20,556 nt of DNA from Escherichia coli (lineage in GTDB: Bacteria > Pseudomonadota > Gammaproteobacteria > Enterobacterales > Enterobacteriaceae): NCBI GenBank assembly GCA_022664555.1, contig GCA_022664555.1_4839.2; one strand, written 5' to 3'. This document shows, one piece after another, positions 1-17,288 of the stretch. The first letter of the stretch is position 1; every line of letters starts with the position of its first letter. The position numbers and the translations under genes are program-made. The notes beneath the pieces are model-generated. The model ran no database searches. It was given only the letters and a program-made list of their open reading frames with translations, and was not told the DNA's origin.

Positions 1-1
1 C

Positions 2-154
2 ACCCATACCCGCGAACAGGGATTCATCGACAACCAGGGCAACTTCCTCACTCGTGAAGAGGCATGCATCGTAGCCCGTGAAGCTGGACAGATCAATCAG
101 GTGCGCCTGAAGACAACCCCGTTCCGCGAACTCTTTTCCGAAGACCTCTATTGA
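2..154 (+). CDS. 3' end of a gene truncated by the window edge (C-terminal ~50 aa), function unknown
   Basis: Frame 2 is open from the window edge to TGA at 152-154 (...GFIDNQGNFLTREEACIVAREAGQINQVRLK...). Not in the ORF track because it has no start in the window. Confidence 0.35.
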   Translation, partial: THTREQGFIDNQGNFLTREEACIVAREAGQINQVRLKTTPFRELFSEDLY

Positions 155-160
155 AGAAAA

Positions 161-194
161 AGGCGGTATTATACCGCCTCGACCTCTTGTTTGG
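161..194 (+). terminator. Possible intrinsic terminator after the truncated upstream gene
   Basis: Stem aggcggta/taccgcct (161-168 / 172-179) followed by a weak T-rich stretch (ctcttgtttgg). Confidence 0.3.
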
Positions 195-203
195 TAACAT
201 CAA

Positions 204-446
204 ATGAACCCAGAATTTGAAAATCTGTTCGAGCGATGCTTCGAACCAGGTTCTGTGTCCGGTTACATGGACCGCCTTTGCACTGCCATTGTAATACGCC
301 TTGCTGCCAAGGGTATCGTTGTCAACACCATTATCCGCAATGGGAACAACTTTATCATGCAGATGACTGATTATCACCACCGCACAGGCATCATCCAGGT
401 GTCATGTGTTGACAACAGCATTATTGAATGGAGACAGTACGCATGA
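204..446 (+). CDS. Hypothetical protein (80 aa)
   Basis: ATG at 204; stop TGA overlaps the next ATG (ATGA at 443-446), suggesting translational coupling. No clear SD upstream. Confidence 0.4.
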   Translation: MNPEFENLFERCFEPGSVSGYMDRLCTAIVIRLAAKGIVVNTIIRNGNNFIMQMTDYHHRTGIIQVSCVDNSIIEWRQYA

Positions 447-1042
447 CCACATATGTAATCAATGGTGGCGATCTACTGAAAGCCGCCTGTAGCTTCAATC
501 TGATCGACATCTTTGCCCACGGTGCCAACTGTTGGTCTACCATGGGCGCGGGTATTGCCCTGCACATCGGCAACAACTTCCCAGCGCTGCGCGAAGTCGA
601 TGCGAACGACCCTCGTGGTCCAGAGCAACGCCTGGGTGGTATGTCCTATGCATTTGACCACAGCAAGGGCGTTTGGGGCGCGAACCTCTACACTCAGTTT
701 TATCCAGGCCCTAACGCTCGCATGCCGTCTGTCATCAGTTCTGTTCAGACCCTGTTTGAGCAGGTGCATGAAATTGTGGAAGCAACTAAAGACGAAACTG
801 TCTATGTCGGCCTGCCTGCTATCGGCTGTGGTATTGGTGGTCTGAACCTCTACAGTGTAGTGCGCCATATCAATCGAATCTCTGAAAGCGTGTATGAAGA
901 GACCCGCCGTCGTGTCGTCCCAGTCTTCTATATCAGGGAAGGAGACGGATTCGATGATGATCTGATGGAACTTTCTCATCTGGACACAGAAGGTATCATG
1001 ATTGTCGAAGATGAGCAAGAAATCATCGACGAGGAGGGGTGA
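443..1042 (+). CDS. Macro-domain (ADP-ribose binding/processing) family protein
   Basis: ATG at 443 with GGAGA 7 nt upstream. Motifs IDIFAHGANCWSTMGAGIALHI and VYVGLPAIGCGIGGL resemble the two glycine-rich macro-domain signatures. Acidic C-terminal tail. Confidence 0.6.
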   Translation: MTTYVINGGDLLKAACSFNLIDIFAHGANCWSTMGAGIALHIGNNFPALREVDANDPRGPEQRLGGMSYAFDHSKGVWGANLYTQFYPGPNARMPSVISSVQTLFEQVHEIVEATKDETVYVGLPAIGCGIGGLNLYSVVRHINRISESVYEETRRRVVPVFYIREGDGFDDDLMELSHLDTEGIMIVEDEQEIIDEEG

Positions 1043-1045
1043 ATA

Positions 1046-1297
1046 ATGATATGCGCGTTTGATCAAGAATTTTATAAAAAGGTCAATATTCTAAAACTTG
1101 TCATGTCTGGAACTAGTTCGAAAGAAGTATCAGAAATTTATTGTATTTCACAGGCCAGGGTGAGCCAGATTTTGAGGGAAACTATAGGGTTACTTTGCCC
1201 AGAGATAGAAATTAAGCGCGTCAACAAAAAGTTCATTGATGAAAATTATTATACAGTAAAAGCCAAAATAAAGTGTTGGGAGAATAAGCATGTATAA
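1046..1297 (+). CDS. Small HTH DNA-binding protein (sigma-70 region-4 / NUMOD1-like helix-turn-helix)
   Basis: ATG at 1046 preceded by GAGGAGG. HTH-like segment SSKEVSEIYCISQARVSQILRE. The ORF lies in a visibly AT-rich island compared with its flanks. Confidence 0.55.
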   Translation: MICAFDQEFYKKVNILKLVMSGTSSKEVSEIYCISQARVSQILRETIGLLCPEIEIKRVNKKFIDENYYTVKAKIKCWENKHV

Positions 1298-1922
1298 ATC
1301 AAATTTTTTGGCTGTGGCTGACAGTGAAACCTTGGGGCGCTGGGATGATGCAGTCATGCTGTCTTGGGCGCACACCATCGCCGATCTGACCAAGCGTTAT
1401 ACACTTCAGCAGCTGGTTGAGGAGCGCACGACGTTCATTAAGCTGAATGTCAAAGAGCAGCTCGAACTTGGTCGCGTGAAGGACCAGGGGACGGTAGAAT
1501 GGTGGTTGGGGGCGGGTAAACGTAACCCGTGTGATGCGGCTCGCGCAGTCAGTCTGTACCCCAAGGAAGATGACATCTCTATCTTCCAATTGGCCGATGA
1601 AATCCGCAAGGGTTGCCATCGTCTTGGGGTAGACCCGCGCTCGGTTGACTGGTGTGATCGCAACCTGTTTGATCTGCGCAAGGCTCAGCACATCATTGAG
1701 GTGACATGTAAGCAGGACTCCAACGAGCCTTGGGACTACCACCACACCTTCGACATCGTGAGCTGGCTGAAGGGTGTTGGACAGCAGGATCGGTATGCTG
1801 GTATCAAGGCGTGGGAACTGGAAGGTATGGTCTATCATGACCCTCGTTATGACGCTGCGCTTGACTGGCTGCGTATTCAGAAGACCATGGAAGATCTGAT
1901 GGGGCTGGAGGTTGTGGGATGA
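1290..1922 (+). CDS. dexA: DEDDh-family 3'-5' exonuclease (T4 DexA-like)
   Basis: ATG at 1290 with GGGAGA upstream. Exo I motif AVADSETLG, Exo II-like NLFDL, Exo III motif HDPRYDAALDW (H-x4-D). Length and motif order match phage exonuclease A. Confidence 0.75.
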   Translation: MYKSNFLAVADSETLGRWDDAVMLSWAHTIADLTKRYTLQQLVEERTTFIKLNVKEQLELGRVKDQGTVEWWLGAGKRNPCDAARAVSLYPKEDDISIFQLADEIRKGCHRLGVDPRSVDWCDRNLFDLRKAQHIIEVTCKQDSNEPWDYHHTFDIVSWLKGVGQQDRYAGIKAWELEGMVYHDPRYDAALDWLRIQKTMEDLMGLEVVG

Positions 1923-2221
1923 TTGTATTCACTGTCATCGGTGTGATCGTAACAGCTGGGGTGTTCACAGCCATATTGGGCTACCTGTACTTCATGTTCC
2001 TTCATCCGTTATTTCAGGCGTTCAGTCTCACGAATTGGTACTTGGCCTGCCTAAAGGCCGACGGCGGCGTGAACACAGCCTCTCTTCCTTACTGGCGGCT
2101 GGTAGCGCATTACTACTCGGTCGGTGGATGGCCTGGGGAAAGGACATGGAACTCTATCGGTGAGTGGTATGGAATAGGTCGATGGCGTATATTCCCTGAT
2201 GAAGACGATCAAGCCCCGTGA
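1919..2221 (+). CDS. Small membrane protein (N-terminal transmembrane segment)
   Basis: ATGA overlap with the dexA stop. Hydrophobic N-terminus IVFTVIGVIVTAGVFTAILGYLYFMF. Terminator immediately downstream. Confidence 0.5.
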   Translation: MIVFTVIGVIVTAGVFTAILGYLYFMFLHPLFQAFSLTNWYLACLKADGGVNTASLPYWRLVAHYYSVGGWPGERTWNSIGEWYGIGRWRIFPDEDDQAP

Positions 2222-2234
2222 GGGGCTTTTCTAT
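2211..2234 (+). terminator. Rho-independent terminator
   Basis: agcccc-gtga-ggggct stem-loop (2212-2227) followed by TTTTCT; overlaps the stop codon of the preceding ORF. Confidence 0.6.
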
Positions 2235-2285
2235 ATCCGGGGTAGAGTATCATTGGTTCACCAATGAATCCTCGGGAGAGGTGAT

Positions 2286-2627
2286 ATGAAACGTTCGGTT
2301 GTCGTAAATGACATCACGAGATTGATAAACCTTGTCAAAGATGTGTTTCCACAACAGGTGGATGTCGAGTACGTGGGGAAGAACGGGAAGTGTTACCAGG
2401 TCGCTCTGTTGTTGAAGCACGTGTATCCCCAAGCAGAGATCCATTACAGTCAGACCGAAGGTCATGTGTATACTCTGATTGATGGGCATTACTACGACAT
2501 CGACGGCATCCACTTCAGTGTCCCACCGGACACGTGTTTGCTCGAACACAACAGAGGCCATAAACCCCATCGCTGGCATAAAGGATTTGTGAACGTACCA
2601 ATTTTAGAATGGTTGAGGAGACCATAA
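2286..2627 (+). CDS. Hypothetical protein (113 aa)
   Basis: ATG at 2286 with GGAGAGG 5-6 nt upstream; stop TAA overlaps the next start (TAATG). Confidence 0.55.
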
Positions 2628-3187
2628 TGGCAGGAATTGTGAAGTACCTGGGCGACACCCACCTCGGGCACAAGAAGATCTTCAAGCCCCGTGGGTTCGA
2701 CACGCAGGAAGCCCACGACGCTGTGGTCATCGACAGTATCTTTCAGGGGCTGAAGTCCCGAGACGTCCTTGAACTTGCAGGCGACATCTGCTTCATCGGG
2801 GCTGAGGGGTTCATTCGCCTGATGCGCGAGGGTGCCAAGCGGAATATTGATGAGTTCAAACGCCGCCCGGTTCCCGATGACTGGCGACCGAACTTTATCA
2901 TCAGGGTGGCGCAAGGCAACCATGACAATTTCAAGATGTTGATGCAGCTGTATCAAGAGGGATGGATTAGCTCCTTTGGTGCGATGTATGAGCGTGATAC
3001 TCCGGTTGGTCGTGTGCTGACCACTCACGTTCCTTATCAATTAGACCGCTGGGCGTATAATATCCATGGTCATCTTCACAGTGAAATGCGTGAAGAACGT
3101 GAATACCTGAACTGTAGTTGGGAACAATTCAAGCGCCCTGTAACCCTGTCTGAGTTGTTATACACCAATCTGGGGATTGAAATATGA
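2627..3187 (+). CDS. Calcineurin-like metallophosphoesterase
   Basis: ATG at 2627 with GAGGAG 6 nt upstream. Metallophosphatase motifs GDTHLG (GDxHG), GNHD (GNH[DE]) and HGHLH. Confidence 0.7.
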
Positions 3188-3501
3188 AAATTTATTTTCC
3201 TGGCCAAAAAGTGCCTTCTGAAGTGCAGAAGGTCACAATCACAGGCTACCGGAAAGGGGATCCATATCTGCGCTTCTCCTCTCCATGTATCGTGAAGCAA
3301 ACTAAAACGGGTTATTATATCAGGCCGATTGTGTTGATGGGCTGTGTAATGACGTTCAGAGCTTCCTGTGAACACGTTCTTATACAAGGAAGCCCGAACA
3401 TCGAAGGTGGAGAAACCCACACGAACTGCAAGCCGATTATCCCGACATGGTTGATTATTGGTGTGCTTTCCGTTTTAGCTCTGAAAGGAATATTGTCATG
3501 A
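3184..3501 (+). CDS. Hypothetical protein (105 aa) with hydrophobic C-terminus
   Basis: ATGA overlap with the preceding stop. C-terminal TM-like segment [18 protein letters not shown]. Confidence 0.45.
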
Positions 3502-4212: not shown

Positions 4213-4718
4213 TGGCTATCAAACCCCGTATGTTGTTTGCGCATATGCGCTCGGCTCATGCATACGCTCTGTCCAGCTATGCCCAGCGCCTGAAGGTCGG
4301 CTGTGTTATCGTTGACCCGCGTGTTGACCAGCCCCTGTCTATCGGTTGGAACGGGACTGCTCCTGGCGCTCCTAATGTCTGTGAGAAGGAAGTAGACGGT
4401 CAACTGGTATATGTGGGTGTTATCCACGCCTAGGATAATGCTCTGATCAAACTCCCCCAGCACACCGAAGACTGTTGTGGCCTGGTGATGTTTGTCACTC
4501 ATAGTCCATGCCCAGAGTGCACCCGTCGTATTATCGACAGTGGCAAGATCGCTAAAGTGTTCTATGACCGACAATATAGTATCACAGACTGTATTATTGA
4601 AATGCTGGCTGCTGGAATTGAAGTATATCGCATGGTCGATCAGGTTGTTGTAGTCCAGCATTCTGTGAAGAACGGCGAACTGGTATCCACCCCTGTTTTA
4701 GTGAACCCTGACAAATAA
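4212..4718 (+). pseudogene. cd: dCMP deaminase (cd) interrupted by an in-frame amber codon (TAG at 4431-4433) at the catalytic-Glu position
   Basis: Single 168-codon frame. N-part VGCVIVD...SIGWNGTAPG...VIHA, then TAG, then DNALIKL...THSPCPEC. This matches the deaminase zinc motifs H-A-E and PCxxC, with the stop where E is expected. ORF-track fragments are 4209..4433 and 4485..4718, in the same frame. Confidence 0.75.
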
Positions 4719-4728
4719 GGAATTTATC

Positions 4729-5136
4729 ATGCGTTATGTAGATCGTATGCTCGGCAAAGACGAGCACGTTATTGCCTTCACCCGCCCGACTTGGTGGAGC
4801 GGTTTTTGGATTTATGTTCTGGTTATTTTAACGTTTATTCCAACATTTGGATTCAGCTTGTTATTTCTGATACCAACAATTTTAAATGTATTGACAACTG
4901 AATTCGCTGTGACTAACAAGCGCGTCATCGTCAAGCGCGGGTTCATCCGTCGTGATGCTGATGAGTTGCGCATTGGTAAGGTGGAGACAGTGAAGGTTGA
5001 TCAGTCCATCACAGGCCGCATCTTGGGTTTCTCAACAATCAGCGTGATCGGTACGGGCGGCACCCGCCTGCTGGCCAAGGGTTGTGCTGGTGGTAATGCG
5101 TTCCGTCAGAAGATCTACGATCACCTAGAAGACTGA
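4729..5136 (+). CDS. Membrane protein with bacterial PH-like (DUF304-type) domain
   Basis: ATG at 4729 with AAGGA upstream. Two hydrophobic segments followed by a TNKRVIVKRGFIRRDADELRIGKVETVKVDQSITGRILGF pattern. Confidence 0.55.
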   Translation: MRYVDRMLGKDEHVIAFTRPTWWSGFWIYVLVILTFIPTFGFSLLFLIPTILNVLTTEFAVTNKRVIVKRGFIRRDADELRIGKVETVKVDQSITGRILGFSTISVIGTGGTRLLAKGCAGGNAFRQKIYDHLED

Positions 5137-5138
5137 TC

Positions 5139-5351
5139 ATGATCATTTCAGGTTACACCATCGATCTTTATTGTGAATGCTCAGATTGCAAGGCATGCAG
5201 TTGGGCTTGGGAAGAGCATCACCCCAAGTGCGGGTTCAAACAATACACTGGTGAGACTTGGGGTGAGTGTGTCAAACAGGCGCGAGCAGACGGCTGGCAA
5301 ATTGGGCGCGACAGGCATACCTGTTACGCCCCTGGCCACAAGAGAAGTTAA
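5139..5351 (+). CDS. Small cysteine-rich protein (possible zinc-binding)
   Basis: 70 aa with CECSDCKAC ... HHPKC ... C ... C spacing; follows the previous stop by 2 nt. Confidence 0.45.
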   Translation: MIISGYTIDLYCECSDCKACSWAWEEHHPKCGFKQYTGETWGECVKQARADGWQIGRDRHTCYAPGHKRS

Positions 5352-5962
5352 GGTAAGAGCAGTCCATCATCCCGCTCCGTTGGGGCGGGTTTAATCTCCT
5401 TCCGCATCTGTTCTTTCAAGAATCTGACACGCTCGGCATGTCGGCGATCTTGCATCTCCATATCCCGTTTCTTTTTCGACTTCAATTCGAACTGTTTACG
5501 AACATCCGGATCTTCACCTGGAACAAGATGCTCTTCGGTCCAGATAATGAACTTCCAGTTCTTCTTGGCACACAGTTCGCGGGTGGCCTCCCACTTGGCA
5601 GAATTGACCAACCAGGTTCGCATCGCATTGTTGAACGTCGACTCCTTCATGTTCGGAGTCTTCTTCGGCTGCTTGATCTGGTCTTTGGGCTTGATCTCAA
5701 TGAGGGTGACCTGTAGTTCCTCTTGCCCTTCACGGCGCGTCCAGACCTTGAGGTCCATGAAGTAACGATGGGTGCGCCCGTCTACTGGGGAAATGTAAGG
5801 GATTACGGTCTCCTCGTTTTCCCAGAAAATGATCGCAGGATTAGTATCACAAAACTTGAAAGCCACAAGTTCCAAAGAAGATCGAAATACGATTTTGTTT
5901 GGGTTGCCTTTGTACTTTTTAGGATTGACAGGAACATATTTCCCTTGAAGATATTGCGCCAT
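5348..5962 (-). CDS. Hypothetical protein with PD-(D/E)xK-like nuclease motif and lysine-rich C-terminus
   Basis: ATG at 5962 with GGAGGA upstream, overlapping the seg stop (TAATG). Motif ...PYISPVDGRTHRYFMDLKVW... (D ... D-L-K). Confidence 0.5.
   Translation of the reverse strand: MAQYLQGKYVPVNPKKYKGNPNKIVFRSSLELVAFKFCDTNPAIIFWENEETVIPYISPVDGRTHRYFMDLKVWTRREGQEELQVTLIEIKPKDQIKQPKKTPNMKESTFNNAMRTWLVNSAKWEATRELCAKKNWKFIIWTEEHLVPGEDPDVRKQFELKSKKKRDMEMQDRRHAERVRFLKEQMRKEIKPAPTERDDGLLLP
5371..5395. terminator. Possible bidirectional terminator hairpin between convergent genes
   Basis: cccgctcc-gtt-ggggcggg stem-loop followed by TTTAAT. It lies in the last codons of the minus-strand ORF, so the assignment is tentative. 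Confidence 0.3.
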
Positions 5963-6699
5963 TATGCTTTCCTCCAACCTTTATGCTGTAAATTGCGACC
6001 CTTGTTTACGTGGCCCATGGAGCCTTCGCTCAAACCGATTTCTTTACAAAATTTTGCCAGGTTGACAATTGTCACCAACTGCCCTTCTGGGTTGATGAAT
6101 TTGAATTCTCGGGAATTGGCCTCGGATATTCTCTCGCGCCCTTCTTTCGTCACAGCCCCTTTGCAATTAGAGTAATCTACCAACCCCAATTCAACAAGTC
6201 GCTTATTTGAATTTCTTATTTTGTCCCTGGTTTGCTGGTCTACAACACAACCAAATCTTGGGTTATTTTCTCCCGAACGATCTTTTCCAAACCAAAAATT
6301 TCTAGAACCGTTTAGCGCTCTTGAACGATAAATTCTTTCCAGTTCTTCTTTTGGTTTAGAGAGTAATGTGTTCAGAGCTTTGGTAGACGCCTGCTTTCTA
6401 GCCTCTGGGTCTGAATTGATGTGGTCGAAGGATCCACATCCACCCAGCGTCAAATTGTATGTATCTTCCCTTTCTATAAAATCTTTGGTTACTATTCTGG
6501 ATTCTTCTAGGTACATTTGTTCCTGAGTTTCACACTCCAATAAAATATCCTTTCTGAAGTTTTCAACTCCATGTTTCTTGATTGCTCTGGTTATCATAAC
6601 ACCAGAACCCATATAGCCATCATCCGGTTCGCCTTTGTGGGCACCAACATATATCTTACCGTTTAGAAGATTGGTTATCTGGTAGACGAAGTATCTCAT
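5962..6699 (-). CDS. GIY-YIG homing endonuclease (Seg-like)
   Basis: N-terminal YFVYQITNLLNGKIYVGA ... GYMGSG ... E ... N matches the GIY-YIG catalytic module. C-terminal half has NUMOD-like DNA-binding repeats. GC is visibly lower than in the flanks. Confidence 0.8.
   Translation of the reverse strand: MRYFVYQITNLLNGKIYVGAHKGEPDDGYMGSGVMITRAIKKHGVENFRKDILLECETQEQMYLEESRIVTKDFIEREDTYNLTLGGCGSFDHINSDPEARKQASTKALNTLLSKPKEELERIYRSRALNGSRNFWFGKDRSGENNPRFGCVVDQQTRDKIRNSNKRLVELGLVDYSNCKGAVTKEGRERISEANSREFKFINPEGQLVTIVNLAKFCKEIGLSEGSMGHVNKGRNLQHKGWRKA
5962..6699 (-). mobile_element. Free-standing homing endonuclease gene inserted between nuclease and baseplate genes
   Basis: Same ORF as the Seg-like CDS; intergenic placement and compositional difference from neighbours. 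Confidence 0.55.
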
Positions 6700-15657: not shown

Positions 15658-16760
15658 AATTTCCTCAATTTGGCTCTGGTGACCTGAGTTTGTTTAACGC
15701 CGTTGTACTCAGTCAGTTCTTTGACACGACCACGGATGATCATATCGCCCTGCAAGAACTCTGTATCCATATAAGAGGTCTTCCAGGTAATTGTATTGCC
15801 TTCTGCTGTTTTGAAAGTAAACAGGTAGCTATCACCATATTCATTGGAGAAGAGGAAGGTGCGCTTGTCGAACCTGACTTGCACTTCCAGCATTTCACCG
15901 ACTTCACCCACCCATTTGTTCTCCGCCTTGCGGTCAGTACGAGGACGATGGATGTAATCGTAATACTTCTTGGCACCCCAGCGGACTGTGTTGTTATCCT
16001 TGATGAGGTGATAGCCGGGTTCACACATGCGTTTCAGGCGAACATTGAACTCATTAGATTCGGACAGCGCACTGATGAAGAGCTTCATATGGTACATTTC
16101 CGACTCGGCATCTTCACGGTATTCGTGTGCCTTGTTTACGAAATACTCTTCATCGGAACCTGCTTTTGGTTTCTGGTGAGACCGGACATAGCCCAGGACT
16201 TTGTCAAACAGTTCAGACTTGATATCCACGCCTGCCAACATCACCTGGAAGCATGCGCGCAGGAAACTGTGGGTGTCGACGAAGCGCTCATTTTGGACGC
16301 GATATATACCCTCTGGGTCGTCCTCGTCTGGCATGAAGAACTCTTGGATTTCCAGATAGTAAGACATAATCGCGTCAAGCGATTTCTGATGAGGTACATA
16401 ATGATGCATACAGGTGCTACCAATCAGCATCTGGGTGTGCGTTTCCTCATTTTCAATCACATACGTGTTCTTGCGACGGATGACTAGATTGCAATGCTGA
16501 CACCAAGAGACGTTCTCTGTCTCGAAGCGACGGATGAAGTCAGGATTGATGTTGTCAGACAGGCGGTTAAGAATAACTTTTGGATATTCGTGATTGAACT
16601 GACCGATGATTTTCCAGCCACCATAAGAGACGGGGCGGTCAATGCCTTCGCCTTCGAGAGTAACAGGTTTCCACCAGTGAGTAAGGATCTCACCAGTGAA
16701 GTCGCGGGTGTGGGTTTTGAAGGGTTCACCATAAGTCACAGTCGGAAACGGAACACCCAA
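15654..16760 (-). CDS. Hypothetical protein (up to 368 aa) with Cys/His cluster and OB-fold-like C-terminus; start codon uncertain
   Basis: Long ORF with no ATG in the first ~117 codons (the track start is TTG at 16760). Cluster WCQHCN...STCMHHY. C-terminal beta-rich segment VGEVGEMLEVQVRFDKRTFLF...ITWKTS. Confidence 0.55.
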   Translation of the reverse strand: MGVPFPTVTYGEPFKTHTRDFTGEILTHWWKPVTLEGEGIDRPVSYGGWKIIGQFNHEYPKVILNRLSDNINPDFIRRFETENVSWCQHCNLVIRRKNTYVIENEETHTQMLIGSTCMHHYVPHQKSLDAIMSYYLEIQEFFMPDEDDPEGIYRVQNERFVDTHSFLRACFQVMLAGVDIKSELFDKVLGYVRSHQKPKAGSDEEYFVNKAHEYREDAESEMYHMKLFISALSESNEFNVRLKRMCEPGYHLIKDNNTVRWGAKKYYDYIHRPRTDRKAENKWVGEVGEMLEVQVRFDKRTFLFSNEYGDSYLFTFKTAEGNTITWKTSYMDTEFLQGDMIIRGRVKELTEYNGVKQTQVTRAKLRKL

Positions 16761-16900
16761 CCTTTCGGCAGTGCGCTAGAGCTTCTTCAGTCTCTAAACT
16801 ACAAAAAATTCATTGTATAACGGAATATTGAAAGTTTTTAAGTTCATTTCCAGACTCATGATGTAGTTGTAACTCTTCAATACAGATTAAATATTAGGCG

Positions 16901-16928
16901 ATTATTTCTTGAAAGTAAAGTTATTGAA
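16901..16928 (-). promoter_or_regulatory. Candidate sigma70-like promoter for the 368-aa gene operon
   Basis: Minus strand: TTCAAT (16923-16928), 16-nt spacer, AATAAT (16901-16906); immediately downstream of the terminator hairpin. Confidence 0.3.
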
Positions 16929-16933
16929 GTTAA

Positions 16934-16956
16934 AAGCCCAGTACTTGACTGGGCTT
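16934..16956 (-). terminator. Rho-independent terminator after the 104-aa gene
   Basis: 9-bp stem aagcccagt / actgggctt with loop acttg. On the minus strand it is followed by TTTTAACTTC. Lies 18 nt downstream of the stop codon at 16974-16976. Confidence 0.55.
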
Positions 16957-16973
16957 CTTGGTGTTCGATTGAC

Positions 16974-17288
16974 TTATTCGCCACTGACATTCGGGTCTCG
17001 ATCGGGCTTGGCGTTCGGGAATAGAGACTCGTATAGGTCTTGATATTTCTCGCTCGTTTCGATCGTCTTATGGTAAGTTCCATTGGCGCGGTCGGATACA
17101 ACCTTGCGCAGGTCGCTGGCCTTGATGCCCGTCTCTTTCGCCAGCTCGGCCAGAGTCTCAGTAATGAAAGTCTGTTCCGACTTGATGCGGACCTGGGCGG
17201 CACGACAGTTTTCAATTGCACCTATCAGCTTGCGACGGGATTCAGGATCAGATGGTAGTACATAAAAGCCGATTTGTTCTACAGACAT
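16974..17288 (-). CDS. Hypothetical protein (104 aa)
   Basis: ATG at 17288 with AAGAGGAA upstream. Confidence 0.55.
   Translation of the reverse strand: MSVEQIGFYVLPSDPESRRKLIGAIENCRAAQVRIKSEQTFITETLAELAKETGIKASDLRKVVSDRANGTYHKTIETSEKYQDLYESLFPNAKPDRDPNVSGE

What the first reader, a model, noticed from the sequence alone, without database searches (positions are those of the whole stretch)
1046..1297. AT-rich island encoding an orphan sigma-r4/NUMOD1-like HTH protein
This 250-nt stretch is visibly more AT-rich than both flanks. It encodes an 83-aa protein whose only recognisable feature is an HTH (ISQARVSQILRE) of the type found in sigma region 4 and in the DNA-binding modules of homing endonucleases. 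It may be a remnant of a degraded homing endonuclease or a recently acquired small regulator.
Basis: seen in the sequence. Interest (0 to 1): 0.45.

Follow-up and report, generated by a model that had tools for sequence, protein, structure and literature searches.

The report
Orphan HTH gene cassette in phage
A 250-base AT-rich island in this Ackermannviridae phage is a real, recently acquired gene for a small helix-turn-helix protein of the sigma-region-4/LuxR type, passed between related phages by ordinary recombination; it is not a decayed homing endonuclease, and it is a fairly ordinary kind of phage accessory gene.

Summary
Window 1046-1297 has GC 0.333, against 0.517 and 0.542 in the flanks, and contains the most AT-rich 252-nt stretch of the 20.5-kb window. 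It encodes a real 83-aa gene: of 9 variable sites among six copies, 8 are at codon position 3. The only recognisable feature is a tri-helical HTH. It scores below threshold against Sigma70_r4, GerE and the sigma-70 family model, but its predicted fold matches LuxR/GerE domains and FliA region 4. NUMOD1 is not matched. The protein is an orphan: seven carriers were found, all Ackermannviridae and all at the same Tk.4|dexA junction. That junction otherwise holds a conserved, unrelated native gene (phrog_5613, 184 phage records) or is empty; no homing endonuclease was seen there in the 60 related records sampled. SilasIsHot carries the island on a roughly 540-bp patch inside a foreign (SFP10-type) backbone. 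Both island flanks trace to a Taipeivirus-type junction. I conclude it is a horizontally acquired accessory gene spread by homologous recombination. It most likely encodes a small DNA-binding regulator, with a sigma-region-4 decoy as the main rival. The homing-endonuclease-remnant reading is not supported. Interest is low to moderate.

The parts
1046..1297 (+). 83-aa ORF (9.7 kDa, pI 8.9) encoding the orphan HTH protein. Predicted helices are 4-20, 25-32, 36-50, 61-66 and 68-82.
   Evidence: ORF; GC 0.333; purifying selection; AF2 pLDDT 87; independent BFVD model TM 0.97; pI
1115..1186 (+). HTH core (residues 24-47). The recognition helix SQARVSQILRE is residues 35-45 (nt 1148-1180).
1031..1045 (+). 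Left junction. GAGGAGG (1031-1037) is the Shine-Dalgarno that serves dexA in empty-site phages and here serves the island ORF. Island-specific sequence begins at 1038. It supplies a new TGA stop for Tk.4 (1040-1042). The G-run length varies among carriers.
   Evidence: Junction comparison
1278..1332 (+). Right junction. GGGAG (1278-1282) is a new Shine-Dalgarno for dexA. The ORF stop overlaps the dexA start (ATGTATAA, 1290-1297). The first 43 nt of dexA differ at 11 sites from the empty-site allele, all synonymous, and are nearly identical to the Taipeivirus IME250 allele. The tract ends at different points in different carriers.
428..1042 (+). Upstream flank: Tk.4 / macro-domain ('phosphatase') gene. 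Its 3' part is one arm of the recombination patch.
   Evidence: phrog_335 E 1e-63; mosaic analysis
1290..1922 (+). Downstream flank: dexA exonuclease. Its 5' roughly 90-130 nt form the other arm of the patch.
   Evidence: phrog_255 E 9e-53

Best explanation
The island is a horizontally acquired accessory gene sitting in a variable slot between the Tk.4 (macro-domain) and dexA genes of Ackermannviridae phages. It encodes a small basic protein. The N-terminal roughly 50 residues form a tri-helical HTH of the LuxR/GerE and sigma-70 region 4 class. The C-terminal roughly 30 residues form a helical hairpin in the position this class uses for dimerisation. Shown: it has no promoter or terminator of its own, it lies inside the Tk.4-dexA gene string, it took over the Shine-Dalgarno that serves dexA in empty-site phages, and it overlaps the dexA start codon. 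Co-transcription and translational coupling are inferred from these features. Shown: it has moved between genera on short patches by homologous recombination in the conserved flanking genes. Inferred: the original insertion was into the Tk.4 tail of a Taipeivirus-type overlapping junction, at GGAG microhomology. Inferred function: a sequence-specific DNA-binding regulator, probably a dimer, that modulates host or phage promoters early in infection. It is dispensable, since most relatives lack it.
Against: Every profile hit is below the curated threshold. The fold rests on single-sequence AF2: four of the five models were poor, although BFVD agrees with the best one. DNA binding, dimerisation and any target site are untested, and no repeated operator-like motif was found near the island. 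The donor organism is unidentified. Homologous recombination explains the spread, but it cannot be told apart here from nuclease-stimulated gene conversion.
Confidence: 0.6

Rival explanations
1. Sigma-region-4 decoy. The protein does not act mainly on DNA. It mimics region 4 of a host sigma factor (closest to the FliA/sigma-28 type) and binds a region-4 partner: the RNA polymerase beta-flap tip, an anti-sigma factor such as FlgM, or an activator. That would redirect host transcription.
Against: LuxR/GerE DNA-binding domains score at least as well structurally. The recognition helix keeps the polar and basic residues expected for DNA contact, and the protein is basic. No interaction data exist, and no standalone region-4 decoy of this kind is known to me.
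Confidence: 0.15
2. Remnant of a degraded homing endonuclease. The HTH is the surviving DNA-binding module of a free-standing endonuclease that once occupied the slot and drove its spread.
For: Patchy distribution, an AT-rich intergenic insertion and a variable-length converted tract in the flanks resemble free-standing endonuclease loci. A LAGLIDADG endonuclease of Streptomyces phage Sollertia carries a C-terminal HTH 41% identical over 39 aa. This phage does harbour a homing endonuclease elsewhere.
Against: There is no nuclease motif or leftover coding sequence: the ORF begins 3 nt after the Tk.4 stop. The ORF is intact in all seven carriers and under purifying selection. None of the 60 sampled records of about 270 related phage records has an insert above about 460 bp at the slot, and only one record of 270 splits into two match places. 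The alternative occupant is a conserved non-nuclease gene. NUMOD1 is not hit. There is no similarity to the window's own GIY-YIG/NUMOD3 endonuclease. The HTH is N-terminal here but C-terminal in endonucleases of this type.
Confidence: 0.07
3. Self-promoting minimal cassette. The HTH protein itself biases inheritance of the island, for example by binding the empty or native allele and recruiting a phage or host nuclease, or by protecting its own allele from cleavage. The result would be super-Mendelian spread without a nuclease of its own.
For: The island is near-identical in phages whose flanks differ by 5-25%. The conversion patches are short, and recoded synonymous sites lie right next to the insertion.
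Against: The recoded dexA 5' allele is a naturally occurring Taipeivirus allele, not a special immunity recoding. Ordinary recombination between co-infecting phages is sufficient and is documented in the family. Only 4 of about 270 records carry it, so it is not sweeping.
Confidence: 0.05
4. Not a gene: an AT-rich regulatory spacer that happens to be open.
For: 5% of composition-matched shuffles give an open run of 83 or more codons.
Against: 8 of 9 polymorphisms are at codon position 3. The ORF has a strong Shine-Dalgarno and start, and its stop is coupled to dexA. It has a confident, reproducible helical fold and significant similarity to real HTH domains. No promoter, terminator or Rfam hit is present.
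Confidence: 0.02

Closest known systems
LuxR/GerE-type (tetra-helical) DNA-binding domains, e.g. B. subtilis GerE (1fse), RcsB, TraR
   Different: Pfam GerE scores 16.4 bits, below the 23.5 cutoff. Sequence identity is 10-21%. The C-terminal part is a two-helix hairpin, not a single helix. No DNA-binding data exist.
Region 4 of sigma-70-family factors, especially FliA/WhiG (sigma-28)
   Different: There are no regions 2 or 3, so it cannot be a sigma factor. It is below the Sigma70_r4 and TIGR02937 cutoffs. It has an unrelated C-terminal extension.
HTH modules of homing endonucleases (NUMOD1; I-TevI-type C-terminal HTH; Sollertia gp128 LAGLIDADG-HTH)
   Same: A generic tri-helical HTH. It is 41% identical over 39 aa to the C-terminal HTH of Sollertia gp128.
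   Different: No NUMOD1 hit and no nuclease domain. The HTH is N-terminal. There is no endonuclease at this slot in the relatives examined and no similarity to the window's own GIY-YIG/NUMOD3 endonuclease.
Phage 'morons' and accessory-gene cassettes in hypervariable slots (Hendrix-type mosaicism)
   Same: Atypical base composition, patchy distribution, insertion exactly between two conserved genes, and exchange by recombination in conserved flanks.
   Different: Classical morons carry their own promoter and terminator. This one has neither and relies on the operon's transcription and on translational coupling.
Small phage transcription activators Mor/C of phage Mu
   Different: No sequence similarity. 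The match is local to the HTH only.

Membership tests
Sigma-70 family / Sigma70_r4 (PF04545, TIGR02937) | Score at or above the curated cutoff of the region-4 or family model | tested here: not met
   PF04545 16.6 bits against 24.1; TIGR02937 22.5 bits against 42.9, E 7e-5
Sigma-70 family / Sigma70_r4 (PF04545, TIGR02937) | Presence of region 2 (core binding and -10 recognition) | tested here: not met
   The protein is 83 aa. No Sigma70_r2 hit at E<=10.
Sigma-70 family / Sigma70_r4 (PF04545, TIGR02937) | Region-4-like fold of the HTH | tested here: met
LuxR/GerE DNA-binding domain (PF00196) | Score at or above the Pfam gathering cutoff | tested here: not met
   16.4 bits against 23.5
LuxR/GerE DNA-binding domain (PF00196) | Four-helix bundle with the HTH in helices 2-3 and a C-terminal dimerisation helix | tested here: inconclusive
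NUMOD1 (PF07453) homing-endonuclease DNA-binding module | Match to the NUMOD1 profile | tested here: not met
   Not listed among Pfam hits even at E<=10. HMMER's filters may drop very weak matches.
Free-standing homing endonuclease gene or its remnant | A nuclease domain (GIY-YIG, HNH, LAGLIDADG, PD-(D/E)xK) or a recognisable remnant of one | tested here: not met
   No such hit in Pfam, PHROGs or NCBIfam. The ORF abuts Tk.4 and dexA, leaving no spare sequence.
Free-standing homing endonuclease gene or its remnant | An intact endonuclease at the same locus in some relatives | tested here: not met
   Among about 270 records, the 60 sampled have slot inserts of 0, about 245, about 340-380 or about 460 bp, and only one record splits into two places. 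The occupants are phrog_5613 proteins with no nuclease hit.
Free-standing homing endonuclease gene or its remnant | Sporadic distribution with flanking co-conversion tracts | tested here: met
   4 of about 270 phage records carry it. The SilasIsHot patch spans 835-1376, and the tract in dexA has variable ends. This feature is not specific to endonucleases.
Moron / horizontally acquired accessory cassette | Atypical composition, patchy distribution and a precise intergenic location | tested here: met
Moron / horizontally acquired accessory cassette | Own promoter and terminator | tested here: not met
   No sigma-70-like promoter or intrinsic terminator within 900-1400. This was a consensus scan only; phage-specific promoters are not covered.

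The most novel reading that the evidence does not exclude
The 83-aa protein is a standalone mimic of sigma-28/sigma-70 region 4, captured from a low-GC bacterial sigma gene. The phage would use it as a decoy for a region-4 partner (the RNAP beta-flap, or an anti-sigma factor such as FlgM) to rewire host transcription. That would be a takeover mechanism not yet described for Ackermannviridae. A second possibility is that the HTH biases the cassette's own inheritance without a nuclease of its own.
Probability: 0.15. Interest if true: 0.6.

Novelty: new member of a known kind. Interest (0 to 1): 0.27.

Why it matters
The island is a cleanly resolved small example of phage mosaicism. One junction has three alternative states, and a foreign 250-bp gene has been carried across genus boundaries (Taipeivirus-like to Agtrevirus/Kuttervirus-like) on patches of a few hundred bases. 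The insertion preserved ribosome-binding sites and the overlap with the downstream start codon for both neighbouring genes. Ackermannviridae are being engineered for therapy and biocontrol, and for that work this is an optional, uncharacterised putative regulator present in AV101 and a few relatives. If it proved to be a sigma-region-4 decoy it would be a new type of host-takeover factor, but nothing here requires that.

Tried and rejected
1. NUMOD1 or homing-endonuclease membership: no profile hit, and no similarity to the window's own GIY-YIG/NUMOD3 endonuclease.

2. A wider family: the word-indexed search of 5.8 billion proteins found one cluster. Exhaustive HMMER over 1.84 billion representatives found four weak HTH-only hits. 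The PDB sequence search found nothing meaningful, and PADLOC found nothing.

3. A cellular or plasmid source: no hits in 185,579 species genomes, E. coli complete genomes or PLSDB.

4. A non-coding RNA or regulatory element: no Rfam hit at E<=1, no promoter or terminator, and only short imperfect inverted repeats.

5. Homology between the island ORF and the native slot occupant: none by BLASTP.

6. Klebsiella jumbo phages as donor: the HTH is 45% identical over 38 aa, but the gene's GC is 0.41 and the similarity is confined to the HTH, so no donor can be named.

7. The first MAFFT junction alignment misplaced the gap, so the junctions were redone by anchoring. One malformed reference gave an error.

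Full report
**What the window is.** The window is part of an Ackermannviridae phage genome. Positions 1-3500 match 204 phage records. The closest are Escherichia phages A221, YX22, ZQ1 and AV101 at 96-97% identity. The neighbourhood is a string of + strand early-type genes:
- a Tk.4 / macro-domain 'phosphatase' gene (428-1042; phrog_335, E 1e-63)
- the ORF in question (1046-1297)
- the dexA exonuclease (1290-1922; phrog_255, E 9e-53)
- a small membrane-like ORF, a YunG-like protein and a phosphoesterase

GC of 1046-1297 is 0.333, against 0.517 for Tk.4 and 0.542 for dexA. The window mean is 0.489 (sd 0.043 for 252-nt windows). The lowest 252-nt GC value in all 20,556 nt (0.313) lies at 1058, and only 0.15% of windows are as low as the ORF. 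All three codon positions are depressed (0.37/0.27/0.36), so the amino-acid composition is AT-biased as well, not just the wobble positions.

**The ORF is a real gene.**
- A GAGGAGG Shine-Dalgarno (1031-1037) sits 8 nt before the ATG.
- The stop codon overlaps the dexA start (ATGTATAA).
- Six independent copies show 9 variable nucleotides, 8 of them at codon position 3. Six are synonymous and three are conservative replacements: I2M, T23S and K72N.
- ORF length alone is weak evidence, since 5% of shuffles give an open run this long.
- No promoter, terminator or Rfam family is detected in or around the island.

**What the protein looks like.**
- Profile hits are all to HTH models and all below curated cutoffs: Sigma70_r4 (E 0.0055), GerE (0.0069), HTH_28 (0.0077); PHROG sigma-factor families (E 0.002-0.08); and the NCBIfam sigma-70 family model TIGR02937 (E 7e-5, residues 14-48 against model positions 124-159 of 165) plus FliA_WhiG (E 0.029).
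- NUMOD1 does not appear even at E<=10.
- Single-sequence AlphaFold gives a five-helix model with pLDDT 87 for the best model, although the other four models were poor.
- An independently built BFVD model of the 98%-identical protein superimposes at TM 0.97.
- The protein is basic, with pI 8.9.

**It is an orphan.**
- The word-indexed search of 5.8 billion proteins returns only its own cluster.
- The exhaustive HMMER scan of 1.84 billion representatives adds four weak, HTH-only hits.
- The best of these, P0004 (59% identity over 37 aa), is the region-4 ORF of a split FliA/WhiG-like sigma gene in a low-GC bacterium. A Sigma70_r2 ORF lies directly upstream of it.
- The other three are proteins made of tandem HTH repeats.
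- There are no hits in 185,579 species genomes, complete E. coli genomes or plasmids.

**Distribution and the slot.** Seven carriers were found, all Ackermannviridae and all at the Tk.4|dexA junction: the window, AV101, 4HA11, SilasIsHot, KE31, one IMG/VR contig and one metagenome contig. Across about 270 related records the junction has three states:
- A conserved native gene of 109-131 aa (phrog_5613, unknown function). Its GC is native (0.46-0.51) and it is 51-58% identical across Kuttervirus, Agtrevirus and Taipeivirus. It occurs in 184 records.
- Empty, with the Tk.4 stop abutting or overlapping the dexA start. Examples are A221, fGh-Ecl02, ChubbyThor and the Klebsiella taipeiviruses.
- The AT-rich HTH ORF.

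The native gene and the HTH ORF share no similarity. No homing endonuclease occupies the slot in any of the 60 records sampled. The largest insert seen is about 460 bp, in a record with an annotated repeat, and only one of the 270 records splits into two match places.

**Evidence for horizontal movement.**
- The island is 97-100% identical in phages whose flanks differ much more.
- SilasIsHot has an SFP10-type Kuttervirus backbone. Informative sites are SFP10-type at window coordinates 436-832 and again from 1421 onward.
- Between 835 and 1376 SilasIsHot switches to window-type. This roughly 540-bp patch carries the island in place of the native gene.
- KE31 and the metagenome contig have a Tk.4 3' end that is 95-97% identical to Klebsiella taipeiviruses.
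- All carriers share a dexA 5' allele, ATGTATAAATCAAATTTTTTGGCTGT. It differs from the empty-site Agtrevirus allele at 11 sites in the first 43 nt, all synonymous. It is essentially that of the Serratia Taipeivirus IME250.
- The converted tract ends at different points in different carriers.

**Where the insertion probably arose (inference).**
- In Klebsiella taipeiviruses, Tk.4 ends ...GAG GGT AAC AAT GTA TAA and overlaps dexA by 8 nt.
- In the carriers, the island ORF ends ...GAG AAC AAA CAT GTA TAA.
- I infer that the insertion arose inside the Tk.4 tail of a Taipeivirus-type junction, at GGAG microhomology.
- On this reading, the newcomer inherited the last codons, the stop and the coupling to dexA, and supplied a new TGA stop for Tk.4.
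- Cross-genus recombination in this family is already documented for tail-spike genes (PMC11721090).

**The homing-endonuclease hypothesis.** In its favour:
- a sporadic distribution
- an AT-rich intergenic insertion
- conversion-like tracts in the flanks
- a Streptomyces-phage LAGLIDADG endonuclease whose C-terminal HTH is 41% identical over 39 aa

Against it:
- There is no nuclease motif and no room for one.
- The ORF is intact and selectively maintained in all carriers.
- No endonuclease was found at this slot in any relative examined.
- NUMOD1 is absent.
- The HTH is N-terminal rather than C-terminal.
- The window's own homing endonuclease (5962-6699, minus strand; SegE-like GIY-YIG plus NUMOD3) gives no alignment to the ORF even at E<=100.
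- The 'recoded' dexA codons are a natural Taipeivirus allele, not a special immunity recoding.

I rate this reading at about 0.07.

**Most likely mechanism.** The following steps are shown:
- This is a real, foreign, dispensable gene for an HTH protein of the LuxR/GerE and sigma-region-4 class.
- It is embedded in the Tk.4-dexA gene string.
- It has been exchanged among Ackermannviridae on short recombination patches.

The following steps are inferred:
- It is co-transcribed with Tk.4 and dexA and translationally coupled to dexA.
- It binds DNA as a small, probably dimeric, regulator early in infection.

The main rival (about 0.15) is that it acts as a sigma-region-4 decoy. Its closest sequence relative is a true sigma region 4, and it lacks region 2. 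Neither function can be tested with these tools.

**Verdict.** The HTH and 'recently acquired regulator' readings hold; the NUMOD1 and endonuclease-remnant readings do not. This is a new, orphan member of a familiar kind: a small phage accessory HTH gene in a hypervariable slot. The mosaic history is unusually clean, but a specialist would not be surprised. Interest is about 0.27.

Noticed in passing
window 5962-6699 (- strand): A 244-aa SegE-like GIY-YIG homing endonuclease with a NUMOD3 motif (phrog_314, E 2e-44) occupies the window's second AT-rich dip (GC 0.41), between the head-completion and baseplate tube-cap genes. Full-length DNA matches are found only in Dickeya limestoneviruses (F-LimII locus, about 83% identity). 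The closest E. coli/Salmonella relatives appear to lack it.
   Followed up: partly
Tk.4|dexA slot in L008 918-1262, L009 915-1295, L010 915-1310, L012 865-1194: The native occupant of the slot is a conserved 109-131-aa protein (phrog_5613, no Pfam hit, unknown function). It is present in 184 phage records across three genera and has been cleanly lost in several Agtrevirus-like and Klebsiella Taipeivirus lineages.
   Followed up: partly
window 1036-1039; L006 about 2490; L013 about 2990: The G-run at the end of Tk.4 is 3, 4 or 5 G in different island carriers. This gives three different Tk.4 C-termini (DEEGE*, DEEG*, and an extension overlapping the island ORF by 17 nt in KE31).
   Followed up: partly
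L005 (SilasIsHot), window-equivalent 215-426: SilasIsHot has a second window-type patch upstream of its SFP10-type Tk.4 segment. The 2-kb region is therefore a multi-patch mosaic, not a single exchange.
   Followed up: no
window 16494-17221: The third AT-rich dip (GC about 0.39) holds ORFs 16494-16820 (+) and 16877-17221 (-), which have no Pfam or PHROG hit. Unlike the island, this region is conserved at about 97% in all close relatives. Some records annotate a 'transcriptional regulator' there.
   Followed up: partly
window about 2230-2285; L003 2518-3437; L004 2741-3657: Between the 100-aa ORF (1919-2221, followed by a terminator-like hairpin at 2211-2228) and yunG, fGh-Ecl02 and ChubbyThor carry two extra ORFs, including an 'alpha hydrolase', that are absent from the window. 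This is another variable slot.
   Followed up: no
L014 4565-5195: The best distant relative, P0004, is the region-4 half of a bacterial FliA/WhiG-like sigma gene. The gene is called as two ORFs (Sigma70_r2 at 4565-4846, Sigma70_r4 at 5001-5195) in a 35%-GC metagenomic contig next to rpsD and the rib operon. It may be frameshifted or a true split sigma.
   Followed up: no
L012 (IME250) 1195-1315: Serratia Taipeivirus IME250 has a 121-nt spacer between the native slot gene and dexA that other phages lack. It contains a short open frame and shows no similarity to the island.
   Followed up: no
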